Below, one piece after another: positions 2,591-50,155 of a DNA stretch of 64,000 bases (position 1 is the first letter of the stretch; the number at the start of each line of letters is the position of its first letter). Position numbers and translations under genes: made by a program. The notes beneath the pieces were generated by a model that saw nothing but the letters and a program-made list of their open reading frames with translations, was not told the DNA's origin and ran no database searches. This DNA comes from a virus, in IMG/VR virus record IMGVR_UViG_3300029267_001718, positions 15,594 to 79,593 of that record; one strand, written 5' to 3'.

Positions 2591-4192
2591 ATGCCAAGCG
2601 AATTAGTACGTGAACTTCTACGTGTCCCTGCTGCTATTCCAGTGGCGGTGGTTCCCTCTGATCCTGAAGCCGATACTGTAACGGTGAAGGGATTTGCATC
2701 GGTTGAAATCGAAGACCGTTCGGGCGATCTTGTTGCTCCGGAGGAATTCGATATCGATCAATTCATGGCAGCACCGAGCCTGATGGTCAACCACAAACTG
2801 TGGGTAGACCCTATGGGCAACGGAGTGGCCGTTGGTCGTCCGATGGAAATGTACGCGTCGAAACTCGTCGACATTGGTAGTGACGACAATTGGGGCGTGT
2901 ACGATCTGAAGACACGCGAACTCGTCAACGAATATCCGAAGGTCAAAGTCCCGAAACTCAAAGCGGGGGATCGCGGGCTGTTCGTTGTGGTCGAAGTGAC
3001 CGAGTACGATGTCGTGAAGATGGTCAAACGTGGCGAACTGTCTTCCTTCTCTTGGCGTGGTCTAGTTCAAGTCGACTACCAAACAAATCCGGACGGCACT
3101 GTTTCCCGGGTGCTGAAGAACATCGATCTCTACGAAATTTCCCTCGTGAACGTAGCGGACAATCCGAGTTCGACGTTTATGGTCGGGAAAATGGTGGCGG
3201 GGAAATTCGAAGGTGAGCCGTCCGAGGATACCTTGGCGGTTCACGTCGTTCGACTTGACAAGAGTCGCTTCGAAACTGAAGTAATGGCTCTTGAATATCT
3301 GAAGAATCACGATTTGGATTCTGAATCTGTGCGGTCGACTGACGAGGCATGGTTCGCACGTCAAAAACCCGCCGACGATTTCAGCAGTCTGAACGATCTT
3401 GTATCTGTGAAAATGAGCGACGGCGTTTTCGTTGTAGCTGGCCCGCTCACTGCCAGATTCTCTCCGCGTAAGGGTTTGAAAGATCCGCAACAACACTGGA
3501 TCGGTCAACTCCTTGGGAGTGAAGCTGCCGAAAATCTGACCAATTTGTATTCGCCTGGATCGGCTGGCGAGGACGCATCGAAAGATGGTCATACTTCATC
3601 CGCAAAGGAGAAAACGATGGCGGACGACGCTGCGGACAAGGGCCAGACGGACGATCAAACCGACGCTGGCGAAGACAAGGAAACCACCGAAACGCAGGAA
3701 ACCCAAACCGACGTGGAAAAGGGTCTTGCGAAATTGGCGGACGACGTTTCGACGAAAACGGCCAAGGCCGTCGCCGAAGCAATCGAGCCGCTGTTCGGCG
3801 GAGTTACCGAATCCCTCAAAACCGTCTCGACTGGACTGGAGCAAATTTCGTCCAAGATGGCGACGGTCGAACCCGACGCGGACACCGAGACCGCGACGAA
3901 GGACGCAGACGAAACGGAAACCGAAACGGACGAAACGGAAAATACGGAAGACACGGAAACGGAACCCGATGGCGACACCAAGACCATCGAGAAAACGTTG
4001 GCGGGACTCACCGATGGTCTCACCAAACTGAACGACAAGGTCGCGGAAGTTGCGAAGACCGCCGAGGGTCTCGCGAAAGCCGCCCCTTCCGGAACCGAAC
4101 GGGACGAGAAAGTCGAAACCGAAAAGACCGGCGAGAAAGACCCGAACAACTGCTTCGACAGCACGTTCGCGTTCCTCGGCGGATCGGAGTAA
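2591..4192 (+). CDS. HK97-family prohead protease with C-terminal acidic scaffolding region
   Basis: VKGFASVEIEDRSGDLV...NH...LSSFSWRG...LYEISLVNVADNP; acidic coiled-coil C-terminus; directly precedes the capsid gene. Confidence 0.85.
   Translation: MPSELVRELLRVPAAIPVAVVPSDPEADTVTVKGFASVEIEDRSGDLVAPEEFDIDQFMAAPSLMVNHKLWVDPMGNGVAVGRPMEMYASKLVDIGSDDNWGVYDLKTRELVNEYPKVKVPKLKAGDRGLFVVVEVTEYDVVKMVKRGELSSFSWRGLVQVDYQTNPDGTVSRVLKNIDLYEISLVNVADNPSSTFMVGKMVAGKFEGEPSEDTLAVHVVRLDKSRFETEVMALEYLKNHDLDSESVRSTDEAWFARQKPADDFSSLNDLVSVKMSDGVFVVAGPLTARFSPRKGLKDPQQHWIGQLLGSEAAENLTNLYSPGSAGEDASKDGHTSSAKEKTMADDAADKGQTDDQTDAGEDKETTETQETQTDVEKGLAKLADDVSTKTAKAVAEAIEPLFGGVTESLKTVSTGLEQISSKMATVEPDADTETATKDADETETETDETENTEDTETEPDGDTKTIEKTLAGLTDGLTKLNDKVAEVAKTAEGLAKAAPSGTERDEKVETEKTGEKDPNNCFDSTFAFLGGSE
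3617..4192 (+). CDS. Nested in-frame scaffolding protein (internal start)
   Basis: AAGGAG 6 nt before an in-frame ATG at 3617 (MADDAADK...); composition switches to D/E/T-rich here. Confidence 0.6.
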   Translation: MADDAADKGQTDDQTDAGEDKETTETQETQTDVEKGLAKLADDVSTKTAKAVAEAIEPLFGGVTESLKTVSTGLEQISSKMATVEPDADTETATKDADETETETDETENTEDTETEPDGDTKTIEKTLAGLTDGLTKLNDKVAEVAKTAEGLAKAAPSGTERDEKVETEKTGEKDPNNCFDSTFAFLGGSE

Positions 4193-43870: not shown

Positions 43871-43875
43871 TCTAT

Positions 43876-44037
43876 GGTTGCGAAGATGCCATTGCCGAGG
43901 ACGTGCAGTATTGGCGGTCGGGCGGTCCCCGAGCGTCGGGTAACGCTGACACGTTGGGCTAAGTGGAAGGGTGGTTTCCCGGGGCGGAGTGCACGCCAAA
44001 CCGGGGAGGTAGGCTGGATCTTCGCAACCTCTTTTTC
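43876..44037 (+). ncRNA. Candidate ~155-nt structured RNA
   Basis: Perfect 12-bp closing stem GGTTGCGAAGAT/ATCTTCGCAACC followed by TCTTTTT; internal helices CGTGC/GCACG, GTCGG..GCTGAC, GGAAG/TTTCC. Confidence 0.6.
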
Positions 44038-44042
44038 TACTT

Positions 44043-44340
44043 GCGAGGGTAGCTCAATTGGCTGTTCACGGAGGGCGGCGGTATTAGGGACGCTGAACCC
44101 GTTTGCCTCAAGGCTCACTGGTTATCATAGCCGATTCGTGAACGACGCGGTGCGGACTTCGGTAGAGAACGTTGATACTGCCACTCCGCCCAAGCCCAAT
44201 GAAAGTCCACGTGGTGACTGCGGGCGAGGGAGCCGTTGTGTGAGCACGGATTCGGAGCATACGAAACGGAAGAATCCCTCTTCCGTATTGCGTTACTGCT
44301 ACGGAAACGAGGTTGGAGGTTCGAGTCCTCCCCCTCGCAC
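44043..44340 (+). ncRNA. tRNA-like RNA with large insertions in D-loop and anticodon loop
   Basis: Acceptor GCGAGGG/CCCTCGC+A; TAGCTCAATTGG; GGTAGAG at 44161; CGTT/AACG stem; AGGTT variable loop; T-arm GGAGG-TTCGAGT-CCTCC. Confidence 0.75.
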
Positions 44341-44386
44341 TTTATTTTGAATTGAAACGCTTCACCATAGAACCGGAGTAGGAAAA

Positions 44387-45958: not shown

Positions 45959-45999
45959 GCCGATATCGGCTTGATTTCTGAGCGAGGATGTGCGATAAT
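45959..45999 (+). promoter_or_regulatory. Promoter with perfect palindromic operator abutting the -35
   Basis: GCCGATATCGGC then TTGATT-17 bp-(TGn)GATAAT. Confidence 0.7.
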
Positions 46000-46080
46000 T
46001 CAATTATTGGAAAACGGGAAACGGGAAACAAAACCACCACGGGAAACAAAACCCACCACACCAAACCGGAGGATTTTACG

Positions 46081-47652
46081 ATGGCGAAAACAGACATGGC
46101 GAAACCGATCTACATTGGGTTCAAACTGGCGGAAAATCAGTACCACATTTTCCACGCGATTAGCTGGAAGGTACGCACCGAATATCGCATCAAACTGGAA
46201 GCCGGTAAGCCGACTTGCGGTTGTGCGTTGTTCCGTTTCGATGGCGGTTGCGATCACGCCGCATTAGTTGAACGTGACGCAACGGTTTTCGCGGGAGCGT
46301 GGGGCGATGACGATCTTGATGTCGACGCGTTTCGCTGGCAAGCCGAAGATCCCTACGCATTCGTTGCGTTTTTCGACAAAGCAGGGGATCGTTTCGGTGT
46401 CTTGCGTCCGAACGTCGGCAACCTCTCGCTGGAGGAAGCCCTGTCGCTGTTGAGCAACGGCACGATTCCAGCGGGGGCGGACACAGACGGCGTTTTGAAT
46501 CCGAATCGTCTCTACGCGGAAGCGGTCGAATCGTTCGACAAGGGAATCGACGTTTCGCATCGTGACGTGGTCGAAGCGGGCGAGGGGGCGGATGAACCTG
46601 TCGCCACTGACACAGCGGACGATGACGCGGACGATTTTGAGGAAGACGTGGTCGACGCTCCTGCGGTCGACACTCCCGCCGAGGAACCGAAACCCGAAAC
46701 GAAATCGGAACCCAAACCCAAGGCCAAAGCGGACCTACCGATCTGGCGACGGGTCAAGCGTCCGAATCCGAATCAGTTCTTTGTCGACAAGGATGTGTGG
46801 GAACAACTACTCTACAGCATGTGCAACGGTGGGAACGTTCTGCTGATCGGCGAGTCGGGATCGGGCAAGTCGGAATTGTGCTACATCGCAACCAAGGCTC
46901 TGCATCGCGAGTTGGCCAAAATTGCCGAAGCGATCACCGATGACAGCGAGCCCAAAAACGTTGAGCCGCTCGATCCGTACAACTGCGGTGCGATGTCGGA
47001 ACCCAGAACGGCACTGATCGGCAACGTCAAACTTCGCGGGGACAAGACCGAATTTGAGCCCGCACGTTTTGCGAAATCGGTGCAGCGTGACGGGGCAGCG
47101 ATCCTGTTGGATGAAATCACCCGGGCGGAGCGGGGAGCATTCAACATTCTCTTGCCGTTGTTGGATCGCCAAGGCTACTTGCCGTTGGATGAGGATGAGG
47201 GTGGCGGTGTCGTCAAACGGGGCGAGAAAGTCACGTTTCTCGCTACTGCGAACCTCGGAATGATCTACGGCGGAACGGACGAGTTGGACAAGGCTCTGAA
47301 GGATCGTTTCGACACGGTTATCGCTCTTGACTTCCCACCCGCAGACGCCGAGGCGAAGGTGCTCCTAGGTCGCTGCGAGGGTCTCACGCGAGCGGACGCG
47401 GATCGTCTGGTTGAAATTGCCACCACTCAGCGACGGTTGGCGGTCGACGGCGATTTCGCGGGCGGTGAGCAAATCTCGACTCGGATGCTTCTCAACGCGG
47501 GCGAAAAGATTGGGGCGGGCATGAGCTTCAATGCTGCCTGTCGGTTCTCGATTGCCAACGCGTTCAGCGACATGGGGGGCGAAACCTCGGATCGTGCGAA
47601 AATCCAGCAAATCATCCAAAAGGGTGACGTGGGCGAATCCTCTGGATTCTAG
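46081..47652 (+). CDS. MoxR/CobS-like AAA+ ATPase with N-terminal SWIM finger
   Basis: CGCALFRFDGGCDH; GESGSGKS; ILLDEITRA; LATAN; DKALKDRF; ISTRML. Confidence 0.88.
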   Translation: MAKTDMAKPIYIGFKLAENQYHIFHAISWKVRTEYRIKLEAGKPTCGCALFRFDGGCDHAALVERDATVFAGAWGDDDLDVDAFRWQAEDPYAFVAFFDKAGDRFGVLRPNVGNLSLEEALSLLSNGTIPAGADTDGVLNPNRLYAEAVESFDKGIDVSHRDVVEAGEGADEPVATDTADDDADDFEEDVVDAPAVDTPAEEPKPETKSEPKPKAKADLPIWRRVKRPNPNQFFVDKDVWEQLLYSMCNGGNVLLIGESGSGKSELCYIATKALHRELAKIAEAITDDSEPKNVEPLDPYNCGAMSEPRTALIGNVKLRGDKTEFEPARFAKSVQRDGAAILLDEITRAERGAFNILLPLLDRQGYLPLDEDEGGGVVKRGEKVTFLATANLGMIYGGTDELDKALKDRFDTVIALDFPPADAEAKVLLGRCEGLTRADADRLVEIATTQRRLAVDGDFAGGEQISTRMLLNAGEKIGAGMSFNAACRFSIANAFSDMGGETSDRAKIQQIIQKGDVGESSGF

Positions 47653-47661
47653 GAAATTTTA

Positions 47662-47711
47662 GCCGATTTCGGTGAATGGGTGTTGACTCGTTCGCCGATA
47701 CCGGCTATATT
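47662..47711 (+). promoter_or_regulatory. Early promoter with two operator boxes
   Basis: GCCGATTTCGGT at 47662; TTGACT(47683)-17 bp-TATATT with GCCGATACCGGC at 47694-47705. Confidence 0.85.
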
Positions 47712-47755
47712 TCACACAACGGGAAACGAACCACCACACAAACGGGAGCGACAAA

Positions 47756-50155
47756 ATGCCTTGGACAACTCACTACAAACCAATCGAGCGAGACGACCGC
47801 GAGTTCGGATTCATCGATGAATCCCTCCGGATGAATGAAGCCGCTGATCGTCGGATGCGAGGCTCGTCGATGTCGGCGGAATGGTTTCGCGGACGTTCGA
47901 AAAAATCGTCGGCGGAGGGCGTGGTTTTTGAGTTGATGCGAATTCGCGAAACGATTCGTAATCTTCTCAAAATTCACGGAGTGCCGAACGGCACGCGGAT
48001 CGATATCGCGACAATGGCAGCGGGTGCACGGGGAGCCGCTGGTTTTGATCGCATCAGCGATTTCTCAGGTCCGCATCTGGTTCTGGACAAAACGATTTAC
48101 GAGGTCTGCGAGTCGAACGAAATGCTCGACGTGTACTGCGGTGCAGCGATCCACGAGGCAGAACACCTGAACGAAACTCGACTCATGTTCAATCTGATGG
48201 AGTCGGGTGAGTTGCGTGGTGTTCTCCAACTGTTCTATAACTTGTGGGAGGATGAACGGATCGAGGCGACGGGTCGCGAGCGGTCTCCTGGGTACGCTCC
48301 CTACCTCCAAGCGTGCAAGCGTGCGTTGTTCGAAAAGAAAGAATTCGGATCGGCTATCGATAACTGGAAGAATCTGCCTGATAAGGACAAGATCCTGGCT
48401 ATCATCTTCGGATTCGTCCGGACGCCTTACCGACTCACCGACGCACAACGCGAGTGGACAACAATAGCGGGGGAATGCCCGTTCACGATTCTGCGAAACG
48501 AGTTCGCCGAATTCCCCAAGGATGAGAATGCGGTGCACGATTACGCGAAACGCACTTTCAACATTTTCAATGAGTTGTGTGACGCGTATGACGGCAAGGA
48601 TGAATCGATGGCCGAGGATTTGGCCAAGGCTCTGAAAGAAATGATGGGTGACGATGATGACTCCACCGAAACGGAAGAAACTGACGGCGGAAGCGGCTCG
48701 TGCGGCTCTGGCGAAAACGACGGCGACGAGCCCGCTGGAGGAACTGGTTCTGCCGAAGGATTCGGTGATGAAACCGAAACGGGCGAAGGCGGATCGGGTG
48801 GAGCCGGTGGTTCCGACTCCGACGATGGAACCGAAGCCGATGGAACTGGAGACGACTCCGACGACGCCGAAGGAACGTCGGAAACTGGCGAATCGAAAAC
48901 GGAAACGGAAGTGACCGATAAGGAAGTTCGCGAAATGGCGAAACGTCTGAAACGACAAGCCAAGGCGGACGCGGCGGACAAAAAACTGGAGGAACTTGAT
49001 TCGAAATCGGATAAGAAAATCGATGCTGCTGAATCGAAAATGAAAAAGGTCGACACTCCGGAGAAAATGGAGCACGCGATGAAGTCGGGCAAGTCGACTG
49101 CTCCGACTGCATCTGCATCCCGCGAAACTGCCAAACGTGCGAAAGATAACCGGGGTGAGAAACGGATCGGCAAACGTTTCGGTGTCTCGGATCTGAAGCG
49201 GATGATTGAGCGGCTCGACTCGGTCTCCACTCCATTGGATTGCAGCGAATCTGAGTGCCTTGCCAAAGCCGAATCGGAGCGTGTGGAATTCGGCGAATCT
49301 TGGGTCAATCCGGACGGGTACGCAGACGACAAGCGGCGGACGGTCATCTCGCATCCCGTTGCAACGGACGTGGGAAACAAGCGACGATACGACGCGGCGA
49401 AAAAAGCGGTCAAGGAACACGTCCAAAAAATGAAACAAGTCTTCCAATTCCGCAAGGGTACGCGGCACTTCACCGAAACCCAAAAAATTGAGGGACGCCT
49501 GTCACGCCGAATGATCGGGTCAGCCAAGGCGACCAAACGCATCTTCCAAACCCACTACAAGAAAACGGCCAAAGGGCTGTCGCTGTGTCTCGTGCTCGAT
49601 GAATCCGGCAGCATGGGAACGGCGGACGTTTACGGCGGTGAGCTTTCCACGACGCGGGCAGGGATCGCTTTGCGGGTTGCGACTCTGATCGTCGAAGCCC
49701 TTCGGAATGTCGACGGGATTGAGTTGGAGGTTTATTCGTACGGATCTTGCGGAACGAATCACGCCGACAATCACATGAAGTATCTGTACGGTCGGGAGAA
49801 TGCCGATCCCACGTCGATTGGCGGGTATCACCACAGCGGCCAGAATTACGATCACCAAGCAATCGCGGAAGCCGGTCGACTGTTCAAAAAGAACACCGAA
49901 AACGAGAACCGTCTTATGATCGTCCTGAGCGATGGTGCTCCCTGTGGTCACGGGTACGGCGGAATGGAGGCGATTCGTGCCACCAAAAAATCGGTCGATG
50001 ACTTGGAGCGACAAGGCGTGAAGGTTGTTCAAGTCGCTATCGATTCCTTCGACTCGAAATCGATGTTCAAGAACGTGATTAAGTTTCTCGATTTGAACGA
50101 TCTAATCAACAACATGCGGAGACTCGTGACGCGAGTCGTACAATCTATAAGCTGA
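47756..50155 (+). CDS. CobT-like protein: HExxH metallopeptidase-like N-terminus, acidic linker, C-terminal VWA domain
   Basis: IHEAEH...NLWEDERIE; MIDAS LVLDESGSM; IVLSDGAP. Confidence 0.85.
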   Translation: MPWTTHYKPIERDDREFGFIDESLRMNEAADRRMRGSSMSAEWFRGRSKKSSAEGVVFELMRIRETIRNLLKIHGVPNGTRIDIATMAAGARGAAGFDRISDFSGPHLVLDKTIYEVCESNEMLDVYCGAAIHEAEHLNETRLMFNLMESGELRGVLQLFYNLWEDERIEATGRERSPGYAPYLQACKRALFEKKEFGSAIDNWKNLPDKDKILAIIFGFVRTPYRLTDAQREWTTIAGECPFTILRNEFAEFPKDENAVHDYAKRTFNIFNELCDAYDGKDESMAEDLAKALKEMMGDDDDSTETEETDGGSGSCGSGENDGDEPAGGTGSAEGFGDETETGEGGSGGAGGSDSDDGTEADGTGDDSDDAEGTSETGESKTETEVTDKEVREMAKRLKRQAKADAADKKLEELDSKSDKKIDAAESKMKKVDTPEKMEHAMKSGKSTAPTASASRETAKRAKDNRGEKRIGKRFGVSDLKRMIERLDSVSTPLDCSESECLAKAESERVEFGESWVNPDGYADDKRRTVISHPVATDVGNKRRYDAAKKAVKEHVQKMKQVFQFRKGTRHFTETQKIEGRLSRRMIGSAKATKRIFQTHYKKTAKGLSLCLVLDESGSMGTADVYGGELSTTRAGIALRVATLIVEALRNVDGIELEVYSYGSCGTNHADNHMKYLYGRENADPTSIGGYHHSGQNYDHQAIAEAGRLFKKNTENENRLMIVLSDGAPCGHGYGGMEAIRATKKSVDDLERQGVKVVQVAIDSFDSKSMFKNVIKFLDLNDLINNMRRLVTRVVQSIS

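What the first reader, a model, noticed from the sequence alone, without database searches (positions are those of the whole stretch)
44043..44340. tRNA-shaped RNA of ~300 nt with two large structured insertions and no recognisable anticodon
Seen in sequence: a perfect 7-bp acceptor stem (44043-49/44332-38, discriminator A), U8A9-GCTC-AATTGG, then ~100 nt of hairpins (e.g. GTTCACG/CGTGAAC), then GGTA-GAG at 44161, a CGTT/AACG anticodon-like stem enclosing ~130 nt, an AGGTT variable loop and a canonical T-arm. The 3' part has two mutually exclusive pairings (ACGGAAGA/TCTTCCGT versus TTCCGTA/TACGGAA). It lacks the G3:U70 pair of tmRNA and I could not fit a complete group I core. Inference: a tRNA-mimic scaffold that uses host RNase P/CCA maturation to carry a functional payload (Y-RNA/YrlA-like adaptor, anticodon-nuclease decoy, or new ncRNA class).
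Basis: partly seen in the sequence, partly recalled or inferred. Interest (0 to 1): 0.88.

Follow-up and report, generated by a model that had tools for sequence, protein, structure and literature searches.

The report
Oversized tRNA-shaped phage RNA gene
A 297-base stretch of an uncultured sediment/seawater phage has the two ends and the corner of a tRNA but no codon-reading arm. It is most likely an unusually large example of the little-understood tRNA-like RNAs of phages, but it has no relatives and no expression data, so its function is untested.

Summary
The tRNA-like ends are real. They comprise a perfect 7-bp acceptor stem, U8-A9, GCUC-AAUUGG, a canonical T-arm and discriminator A, and they lie in a 516-nt non-coding gap of a phage contig. 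This combination appeared in 0 of 100 simulated genomes.

The element is not a canonical tRNA, tmRNA, YrlA or group I intron host. Rfam and ARAGORN gave nothing significant, while a group I control scored 68.5 bits.

Folding favours a D stem GCUCA/UGAGC enclosing a 184-nt insert that is no more stable than shuffled sequence (z +0.15). A 63-nt rod then replaces the anticodon arm (z -4.3). A second GCGAGGG at 44224 could instead close a 116-nt inner unit (z -3.5).

I found no homologue, so there is no covariation, and no RNA run was listed.

Context supports the kind. Related phages carry 101-122-nt tRNA-like genes. 21 of 70 viral loci with the same T-arm module are oversized. A Streptomyces-phage family shows 18 of 31 covarying pairs. 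T5 RNA1 and RNA2 are annotated as tRNA-like stable RNAs of unknown function.

This scan has noted such scaffold RNAs before on other DNA. Verdict: probably a non-decoding tRNA-framed RNA, of modest interest.

The parts
44043..44049 (+). Acceptor stem, 5' strand (GCGAGGG), outer copy
   Evidence: Pairs 7 of 7 Watson-Crick with 44332-38. Pair probability is 0.98-1.0.
44050..44061 (+). U8, A9, D-stem 5' strand GCUC, and the start of the D-loop AAUUGG (G18 G19)
   Evidence: Read directly from the sequence. This signature was absent from 100 simulated genomes.
44057..44240 (+). 184-nt insert inside the D-loop in the favoured fold. It contains a predicted long helix, 44069-86 / 44173-88.
   Evidence: Helix probability is 0.6-0.65. 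The segment as a whole has z +0.15, no better than shuffled sequence.
44224..44230 (+). Second exact copy of the acceptor 5' strand (GCGAGGG). It could close a 116-nt inner tRNA-like unit, 44224-44339.
   Evidence: Rfam's best tRNA-clan alignment starts here (tRNA-Sec, 21.5 bits, E 0.17). The inner unit has z -3.48. The inner conformer is 9-11 kcal/mol less stable than the outer one.
44241..44246 (+). UGAGC, the D-stem 3' strand in the favoured fold, followed by A26
   Evidence: Pairs with 44052-56 at p 0.62-0.65.
44247..44309 (+). 63-nt rod-like arm in the anticodon-arm position. Its apical helix is ACGGAAGA/UCUUCCGU with loop AUCCC. There is no 7-nt anticodon loop.
   Evidence: z -4.29, with 0 of 200 shuffles as stable. 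The apical helix has p 0.83-0.88.
44310..44314 (+). 5-nt variable loop AGGUU
   Evidence: Read from the sequence. It is identical in the Streptomyces BE-phage RNAs.
44315..44331 (+). T-arm GGAGG-UUCGAGU-CCUCC
   Evidence: p 0.96. It is the only T-arm motif in the 79.6-kb record.
44332..44339 (+). Acceptor 3' strand CCCUCGC plus discriminator A. No CCA is encoded; a U-rich trailer follows.
   Evidence: Read from the sequence.
43876..44038 (+). Separate upstream structured domain. A perfect 12-bp helix (43876-87 / 44018-29) closes it, and a U-run follows at 44030-38. It ends 4 nt before the tRNA-like 5' end.
   Evidence: (z -2.72). It folds independently of the tRNA-like part.
43982..43991 (+). 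GGGCGGAGUG, perfectly complementary to CACUCCGCCC at 44182-91 inside the insert
   Evidence: I5. By my estimate the chance probability is roughly 0.05-0.1, so it is only a lead.

Best explanation
This is a gene for a non-decoding, tRNA-framed RNA of the kind represented by phage T5 RNA1/RNA2 and T4 RNAC/RNAD.

Inferred pathway:
1. It is transcribed rightward with its neighbours.
2. Host RNase P cuts before G44043.
3. The 3' end is trimmed to A44339, and the host enzyme adds CCA, because none is encoded.
4. The acceptor/T-arm minihelix, together with the G18G19 to T-loop corner, provides maturation signals and stability.

In place of the rest of the D-loop and the anticodon arm, the RNA carries about 245 nt. 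This is a 184-nt insert of doubtful structure and a stable 63-nt rod ending in a C-rich loop (AUCCC). The rod is the most likely working part and would bind a host or phage factor. The RNA cannot read codons.

Shown here: the tRNA-type ends, the lack of an anticodon arm, the non-coding nature of the region, the stability of the rod, and the recurrence of oversized tRNA-like genes in related and unrelated phages.

Inferred, not shown: transcription, RNase P and CCA maturation, and any partner.
For: - **tRNA-type ends.** They are present and are not due to chance.
- **Non-coding region.** The 516-nt gap lies in a densely coding, one-strand genome. The ORF that spans it scores -0.05 on codon usage against a gene mean of 0.17, and its product has pI 10.3.
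- **Not a known family.** ARAGORN finds no tRNA or tmRNA. Rfam finds nothing at gathering score, and at E<=10 only a non-significant tRNA-Sec hit at 21.5 bits. A group I control scored 68.5 bits.
- **Stable rod.** The 44247-44309 arm has z -4.29.
- **Related phages.** In phages found through the upstream protein, the only tRNA hits in two records are oversized. G009 has a 122-nt hit at 36.1 bits with a 61-nt insert. G005 has hits of 101 and 121 nt.
- **Shared T-arm module.** Among 70 IMG/VR loci sharing it, 21 are 96-200 nt long.
- **Same ends, different interiors.** Two unrelated phages, L047 and L070, carry the same T-arm with an acceptor pairing that is the same or nearly the same, but entirely different interiors of about 43 and 86 nt.
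- **Covarying analogue.** The Streptomyces BE-cluster RNA has a near-identical acceptor/T half. In it, 18 of 31 pairs show compensatory changes and the payload motifs are invariant.
- **Precedent in the record and literature.** GenBank annotates T5 RNA1 and RNA2 as 'tRNA-like stable RNA with unknown functions', and both fold with acceptor and T arms. The roles of T4 RNAC and RNAD are unknown (PMC3014915).
Against: - I found no homologue of this RNA, so there is no covariation for any helix other than by analogy.
- The 184-nt insert is no more stable than shuffled sequence, which is unusual for a functional structured payload.
- No sigma-70-type promoter was predicted nearby.
- A terminator-like helix plus U-run lies immediately upstream.
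- A second acceptor strand at 44224 makes the true 5' end ambiguous.
- The D stem of the favoured fold has a probability of only 0.65.
Confidence: 0.4

Rival explanations
1. Only the 3' 116 nt (44224-44339) is the RNA gene. It would be a tRNA-like RNA of the usual phage size. The canonical 19-nt tRNA 5' fragment at 44043-61 and the 162 nt after it would be a leader or a recombination/duplication scar.
For: - There is an exact second GCGAGGG at 44224. By my estimate, a 7-mer recurs within 475 nt by chance with probability about 0.03.
- Rfam's best tRNA-clan alignment uses this copy.
- The 116-nt unit has z -3.48, whereas 44062-44223 has z about 0 to +0.9.
- 116 nt matches the size of the relatives' RNAs, which are 101-134 nt.
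Against: - The outer conformer is 9-11 kcal/mol more stable.
- The inner 5' half lacks U8 and the D-loop GG, while the outer one has a textbook U8-A9-GCUC-AAUUGG.
- The inner-acceptor pairing has probability about 0 in the full-length ensemble.
Confidence: 0.2
2. It is a non-functional relic: a former tRNA gene broken by insertion or rearrangement and not yet decayed.
For: - It has no anticodon arm.
- The insert has no excess stability.
- It has no homologues.
- The phage carries no other tRNA.
- Syntenic relatives have only a terminator and a promoter, or ordinary tRNA clusters, at this place.
Against: - The acceptor and T-arm are perfect and the D-loop motif is intact.
- The rod is highly stable.
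- 516 nt of non-coding DNA is retained in a compact genome.
- The stretch was fully present in five runs from four studies (two sample types, 2018 and 2021), and the fragments I laid from four other runs showed no differences.
- Oversized tRNA-like genes recur in this phage group.
Confidence: 0.15
3. It is a cis-acting element rather than a trans-acting RNA. A tRNA-like 'punctuation' or 3'-end module would be cut by RNase P and RNase Z to separate and stabilise the flanking mRNAs at an operon boundary.
For: - It sits where relatives have a terminator plus a promoter.
- Both the upstream domain and the tRNA-like part end in a GC-rich closing helix followed by a U-rich tract.
- In L047 the same 25-nt module forms a bare minihelix directly after a stop codon.
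Against: A minihelix would be enough for this role. Nothing explains the extra 245 nt or the stable rod.
Confidence: 0.1
4. It is an interrupted tRNA gene whose insert or inserts are removed, by self-splicing or by proteins, to give a decoding tRNA.
For: - At lowered thresholds ARAGORN can force a tRNA-Val(UAC) with a 218-nt intron.
- Phage tRNA introns of unknown type have been reported (Devoto 2019, PMC6784885).
Against: - There is no group I hit at E<=10, while the control scored 68.5 bits.
- The forced model has a poor D arm, a mismatched anticodon stem, U37 and an 11-nt variable loop.
- No deletion I tried by hand yields a 5-bp stem with a U33/R37 loop.
- The record has no RtcB gene.
- The related, characterised phages infect bacteria. 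From general knowledge, bacteria lack a bulge-helix-bulge splicing endonuclease.
Confidence: 0.07
5. It is a tmRNA-like or otherwise aminoacylated RNA that acts on ribosomes or as an amino-acid donor.
For: - The acceptor/T half with a large interior is the tmRNA layout.
- A73 and the GCGAGGG/CCCUCGC stem resemble, from my memory only, leucine-tRNA acceptors.
Against: - The third pair is G3:C70, not G3:U70.
- ARAGORN tmRNA mode and the Rfam tmRNA families find nothing.
- There is no plausible tag frame.
- The record has no SmpB gene.
Confidence: 0.03

Closest known systems
Phage T5 RNA1 (144 nt) and RNA2 (125 nt), annotated in AY543070 as 'tRNA-like stable RNA with unknown functions'
   Same: These are phage genes with an acceptor stem, a D-arm-like element and a T-arm. 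They have extra folded sequence where the anticodon arm should be, match no Rfam family and have no known function.
   Different: They are 2-2.4 times shorter and lie inside a large tRNA cluster. Their D arms are intact. They have no large D-loop insert and no second acceptor strand. There is no sequence similarity to this element beyond general tRNA features.
Phage T4 RNAC and RNAD (species 1 and 2 RNAs)
   Same: [quoted passage not shown]
   Different: I did not examine their sequences here. From memory they are 119-139 nt. T4 has a tRNA cluster, whereas this phage has none.
Unannotated tRNA-scaffold RNA of Streptomyces BE-cluster phages (for example Elmer L002:1397-1530)
   Same: The acceptor/T half is nearly identical: GCNAGGG, AGGUU, GGAGG-UUCGANU-CCUCC, CCCUNGC-A. 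The anticodon loop is replaced by folded sequence. This family is supported by covariation in 18 of 31 pairs.
   Different: It is 133-137 nt long with an intact D arm, and its payload is conserved (GUGCAC loop, CUAGUAGCGCUGCUAG). I did not find those payload motifs when reading the tRNA-like stretch; the only GUGCAC lies in the separate upstream domain. The shared top half is widespread in phage tRNAs (70 IMG/VR loci), so common descent is not shown.
tmRNA (SsrA)
   Same: It has tRNA-like ends enclosing a large non-tRNA interior and is matured by RNase P.
   Different: The element has no G3:U70, no tag frame and no pseudoknot series that ARAGORN or Rfam could detect. Its D-arm 5' half is canonical.
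YrlA / bacterial Y RNAs (Chen et al. 2014, PMC4201824)
   Same: These are non-coding RNAs with a tRNA-mimicking module, also found in phages.
   Different: In YrlA the RNA ends form the Ro-binding stem and the tRNA mimic is internal (from the paper's abstract and my own knowledge). Here the ends are the acceptor stem. There is no Rfam hit and no TROVE gene.
tRNA genes with group I introns (for example metagenome loci L006 and L017)
   Same: They have the same D-loop and T-arm sequence motifs separated by about 250 nt.
   Different: Those genes have complete D and anticodon arms, and an intron that Rfam scores at 68.5 bits. This element has neither.

Membership tests
Canonical tRNA (Rfam RF00005) | 7-bp acceptor stem, 5-bp T stem with a UUCRANY loop, and a discriminator base | tested here: met
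Canonical tRNA (Rfam RF00005) | Closed D arm and a 5-bp anticodon stem with a 7-nt loop (U33, R37); covariance-model score at or above 29 bits | tested here: not met
   There is no RF00005 hit in the window or in the whole record. ARAGORN finds none. The only candidate loops have C33 or U37.
tmRNA | G3:U70 alanine identity pair | tested here: not met
   The pair is G3:C70.
tmRNA | Tag reading frame flanked by pseudoknots; detected by ARAGORN or the Rfam tmRNA models | tested here: not met
   No SmpB gene is present.
YrlA / Y RNA | Match to the Rfam Y RNA-like model; Ro-binding stem formed by the two ends | tested here: not met
   There is no hit at E<=10. The ends form an acceptor stem instead.
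YrlA / Y RNA | Genomic association with an Rsr (Ro60/TROVE) gene, often also RtcB | tested here: not met
   PF05731 and PF01139 are absent from the 79.6-kb record, which is 73% complete.
Group I intron in a tRNA gene | Conserved P3-P8 catalytic core recognised by RF00028 | tested here: not met
   There is no hit at E<=10. Positive control L006 scored 68.5 bits.
Phage attP copy of a host tRNA 3' end | The same 3' segment in a bacterial tRNA gene, and an integrase gene nearby | tested here: not met
   The exact 25-mer and 29-mer are absent from 185,579 species genomes. There is no PF00589 gene in the record. An attP copy also would not explain the matching 5' half.
Phage tRNA-like stable RNAs (T5 RNA1/RNA2, T4 RNAC/RNAD); a kind, not a sequence family | Phage-encoded, with acceptor and T-arm ends and a non-decoding interior | tested here: met
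Phage tRNA-like stable RNAs (T5 RNA1/RNA2, T4 RNAC/RNAD); a kind, not a sequence family | Accumulates as a stable, end-processed RNA during infection | not testable with these tools
   No RNA holder was listed, and the available runs are DNA contigs only.

The most novel reading that the evidence does not exclude
The two alternative 5' acceptor strands (44043 and 44224) compete for one 3' strand, and the 3' part has mutually exclusive pairings. Together these would make a conformational switch that yields two different RNase P substrates, of 297 and 116 nt. The switch might be set by pairing of the insert (44182-91) with the upstream structured RNA (43982-91). That would be a regulated, tRNA-framed RNA device of a type not described.
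Probability: 0.06. Interest if true: 0.75.

Novelty: new variant of a known kind. Interest (0 to 1): 0.4.

Why it matters
Phages from T4 and T5 to uncultured lineages carry tRNA-shaped RNAs that cannot decode, and fifty years on nobody knows what they do.

This element is the largest I saw: 297 nt, against at most 187 nt among 70 loci that share its T-arm. It is also the only tRNA-like gene of its phage. If it is expressed, its role cannot be codon supply.

It adds one more data point to the 'constant tRNA ends, variable interior' pattern. By itself it does not open a new question.

Tried and rejected
**Homologue searches that found nothing useful**
- blastn against 50,697 phage records matched only the 3' 33-36 nt.
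- Single-protein locus searches with three neighbouring genes found nothing.
- The downstream protein is an ORFan.
- Exact-pattern scans for the 3' end and for an internal 20-mer found 0 hits.
- A gapped D-loop-to-T-arm pattern in metagenomes returned only tRNA clusters and two group I tRNAs.

**Sequencing runs**
- No RNA holder was listed.
- Laying four partial DNA holders gave only short, identical fragments and no variants.

**Synteny**
- RcZahn, DLP3 and TM16 have only a terminator and a promoter in the equivalent gap.
- 12 of 13 IMG/VR relatives have nothing tRNA-like next to the homologous gene.

**Other tests**
- Antisense targets: the longest complementarity to the phage genome is 14 nt, against 13 nt in shuffles, and it lies inside coding sequence. 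I rejected this.
- A T-box reading of the upstream domain (a GGGUGGU motif seen by eye) was rejected because Rfam gave no hit.
- ARAGORN's intron-mode solutions for this element, L032 and Elmer have abnormal loops, and I rejected them.
- The literature searches found no paper describing this architecture.

Full report
**Setting.** The window is part of a 79.6-kb IMG/VR virus record, 73% complete by CheckV. It has a tape-measure gene, and essentially all genes are on the + strand. The finding lies in a 516-nt gap (43871-44386). On one side is a 330-aa protein of PHROG 17202. On the other is a 235-aa ORFan, followed by a CobS/CobT-like AAA+/VWA pair. An ORF (43874-44350) spans the gap. Its codon-usage score is -0.05 against a mean of 0.17 for the phage's genes. 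Its product is a Cys/Arg/Gly-rich protein of pI 10.3 with no family match. I treat the gap as non-coding.

**The observation.** The T-arm is the only one in the whole record. A T-arm with an abutting 7-bp acceptor can arise by chance if G-U pairs are allowed: 0.39 per simulated genome. The full signature, with U8-R9-G10 and a D-loop GG, appeared in 0 of 100 simulations. So the ends derive from a tRNA.

**What it is not.**
- ARAGORN finds no tRNA or tmRNA.
- Rfam 15 finds nothing at gathering score. With lax filters at E<=10 it finds only a non-significant tRNA-Sec alignment (21.5 bits, E 0.17), which starts at a second GCGAGGG at 44224.
- Nothing matches group I introns, tmRNA, Y RNA-like, RNase P, T-box, GOLLD or ROOL.
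- As a positive control, a metagenomic tRNA with a group I intron and the same D-loop and T-arm motifs scored 68.5 bits.
- The record has no TROVE, RtcB, CCA-enzyme, integrase or SmpB gene.
- The exact 25-nt T-arm plus acceptor 3' strand occurs in none of 185,579 bacterial and archaeal species genomes. This argues against an attP copy of a host tRNA.

**Architecture.** In the Boltzmann ensemble the helices of that model have probability about 0, and enforcing them costs 15.5 kcal/mol. The favoured fold keeps the acceptor (p about 1) and the T stem (0.96). Its other elements are:
- GCUCA (44052-56) paired with UGAGC (44241-45) at p 0.65
- A26
- an arm whose first pairs use the nucleotides just before the AGGUU variable loop. 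This is correct tRNA junction geometry.

The arm (44247-44309) is a 63-nt rod with an 8-bp apical helix and an AUCCC loop. It is highly stable (z -4.29). By contrast, the 184 nt enclosed by the D stem are no more stable than shuffled sequence (z +0.15), and 44062-44223 gives +0.9.

A second exact GCGAGGG at 44224-30 could pair with the same 3' strand to give a 116-nt unit (z -3.48). That conformer is 9-11 kcal/mol less stable than the outer one. No candidate anticodon loop has U33 and R37. No frame looks like a tmRNA tag.

**Upstream domain.** Positions 43876-44029 form an independent domain (z -2.72). A perfect 12-bp helix closes it and a U-run follows, ending 4 nt before the tRNA-like 5' end. 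It contains a 10-nt perfect complement to the insert (43982-91 with 44182-91). I rate this as marginal.

**Comparative evidence.** I could find no homologue of the RNA itself. Sequencing runs from sediment and seawater hold the stretch, but the fragments I laid showed no differences, and no RNA run is listed. Covariation is therefore unavailable.

Homologues of the upstream protein led to syntenic cultured phages: Rhodobacter RcZahn, Rhizobium TM16 and Stenotrophomonas DLP3. In these the equivalent gap holds a terminator and a promoter, and DLP3 has an ordinary tRNA cluster 1.5 kb further on.

The same homologues also led to 13 IMG/VR relatives. Among those:
- G009 carries a 122-nt tRNA hit (36.1 bits) with a 61-nt insert, one small gene downstream of the homologue.
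- G005's only tRNA hits are 101 and 121 nt.
- G010 has normal tRNAs.

Oversized, non-canonical tRNA-like genes therefore recur in this phage group, but they are not sequence relatives of this one.

**The wider kind.**
- The 3' 36 nt match an unannotated gap in Streptomyces BE-cluster phages. That gap holds a 133-137-nt RNA with full acceptor, D and T arms and two hairpins in place of the anticodon loop. It is present in 50 records.
- In seven diverse members of that family, 18 of 31 pairs show compensatory changes, while payload motifs are invariant.
- A scan of IMG/VR for the T-arm module GGAGG-UUCGANU-CCUCC-CCCU gave 70 loci. Of these, 29 have a perfect acceptor partner at 64-95 nt, 21 at 96-200 nt, and 18 have none.
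- The oversized ones include a family with giant variable arms, and RNAs whose anticodon loop is replaced.
- Two unrelated phages carry the same T-arm with an acceptor pairing that is the same or nearly the same, around quite different interiors. L047 has a roughly 43-nt minihelix right after a stop codon. L070 is 86 nt.
- The T5 GenBank record annotates RNA1 (144 nt) and RNA2 (125 nt) as 'tRNA-like stable RNA with unknown functions'. Both fold with acceptor and T arms, and neither matches Rfam.
- A T4 review states that the roles of RNAC and RNAD are unknown (PMC3014915).
- Earlier notes of this scan describe many such 'tRNA scaffold' RNAs on other DNA. I used them only as leads and checked the Streptomyces and T5 claims myself.

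**Interpretation.** The best-supported reading (0.40) is a non-decoding tRNA-framed RNA. Host RNase P, 3' trimming and CCA addition would mature it, and the stable rod would be the likely working part. The main rivals are:
- only the inner 116-nt unit is the gene (0.20)
- a not-yet-decayed relic (0.15)
- a cis-acting processing or termination module (0.10)
- a spliced tRNA (0.07)
- a tmRNA-like or charged RNA (0.03).

Nothing here shows transcription, processing or a partner.

**Verdict.** Interest is modest because it is a singleton without covariation or expression evidence, and because the kind has been noted repeatedly before.

Noticed in passing
L002:1397-1530 (Streptomyces phage Elmer); also L003, L050-L054: An unannotated 133-137-nt tRNA-scaffold RNA is present in 50 Streptomyces BE-cluster phage records. 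The acceptor, D and T arms covary (18 of 31 pairs compensatory). The payload is invariant: a hairpin with a GUGCAC loop, CUAGUAGCGCUGCUAG, and AUGA. An RNA ligase gene lies about 1 kb downstream.
   Followed up: partly
L032:5072-5193 (IMG/VR relative G009); L036:1501-1601 and L037:1501-1621 (G005): Related phages carry 101-122-nt tRNA-like genes. They hit RF00005 at 27-36 bits but lack a normal anticodon arm, and default ARAGORN misses those inside the loci I scanned with it, such as L032. The gathering-mode Rfam scan also missed the L032 one.
   Followed up: partly
L047:506-548 (- strand) and L070 (- strand, about 3067-3155): Two unrelated phages reuse the same T-arm with an acceptor pairing that is the same or nearly the same (L047's is interrupted by a 2-nt bulge, L070's differs at the seventh pair). 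In L047 it is a roughly 43-nt minihelix that starts within the stop codon of a 180-aa ORF. In L070 it is an 86-nt non-cloverleaf RNA.
   Followed up: partly
L055, L061, L075, L088, L101 and others: This is a family of phage class-II-like tRNAs with acceptor UGUAGGG/CCCUACA-G. They have an Asp/Asn-type anticodon loop with U37 and giant variable arms, giving total lengths of 119-159 nt.
   Followed up: no
L066:about 422-529: A tRNA-like gene with intact D and T arms whose anticodon stem (CUACA/UGUAG) encloses a 41-nt insert instead of a 7-nt loop.
   Followed up: no
window 43876-44038: A 154-nt structured domain (z -2.72) closed by a perfect 12-bp helix and followed by a U-run. Its apical hairpin loop contains GUGCAC. 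Relatives have simple terminators at this place.
   Followed up: partly
L006:56-347 and L017 (- strand, 1095-1363): Metagenomic tRNA genes with a group I intron (RF00028, 68.5 bits in L006) in the anticodon loop. I used L006 as a positive control.
   Followed up: partly
window 45988-50155: A CobS-like AAA+ gene (AAA_5 + CbbQ_C) and a 799-aa VWA/CobT-like gene pair lie 1.6 kb downstream. The 600-aa N-terminal part of the second protein has no family match.
   Followed up: no
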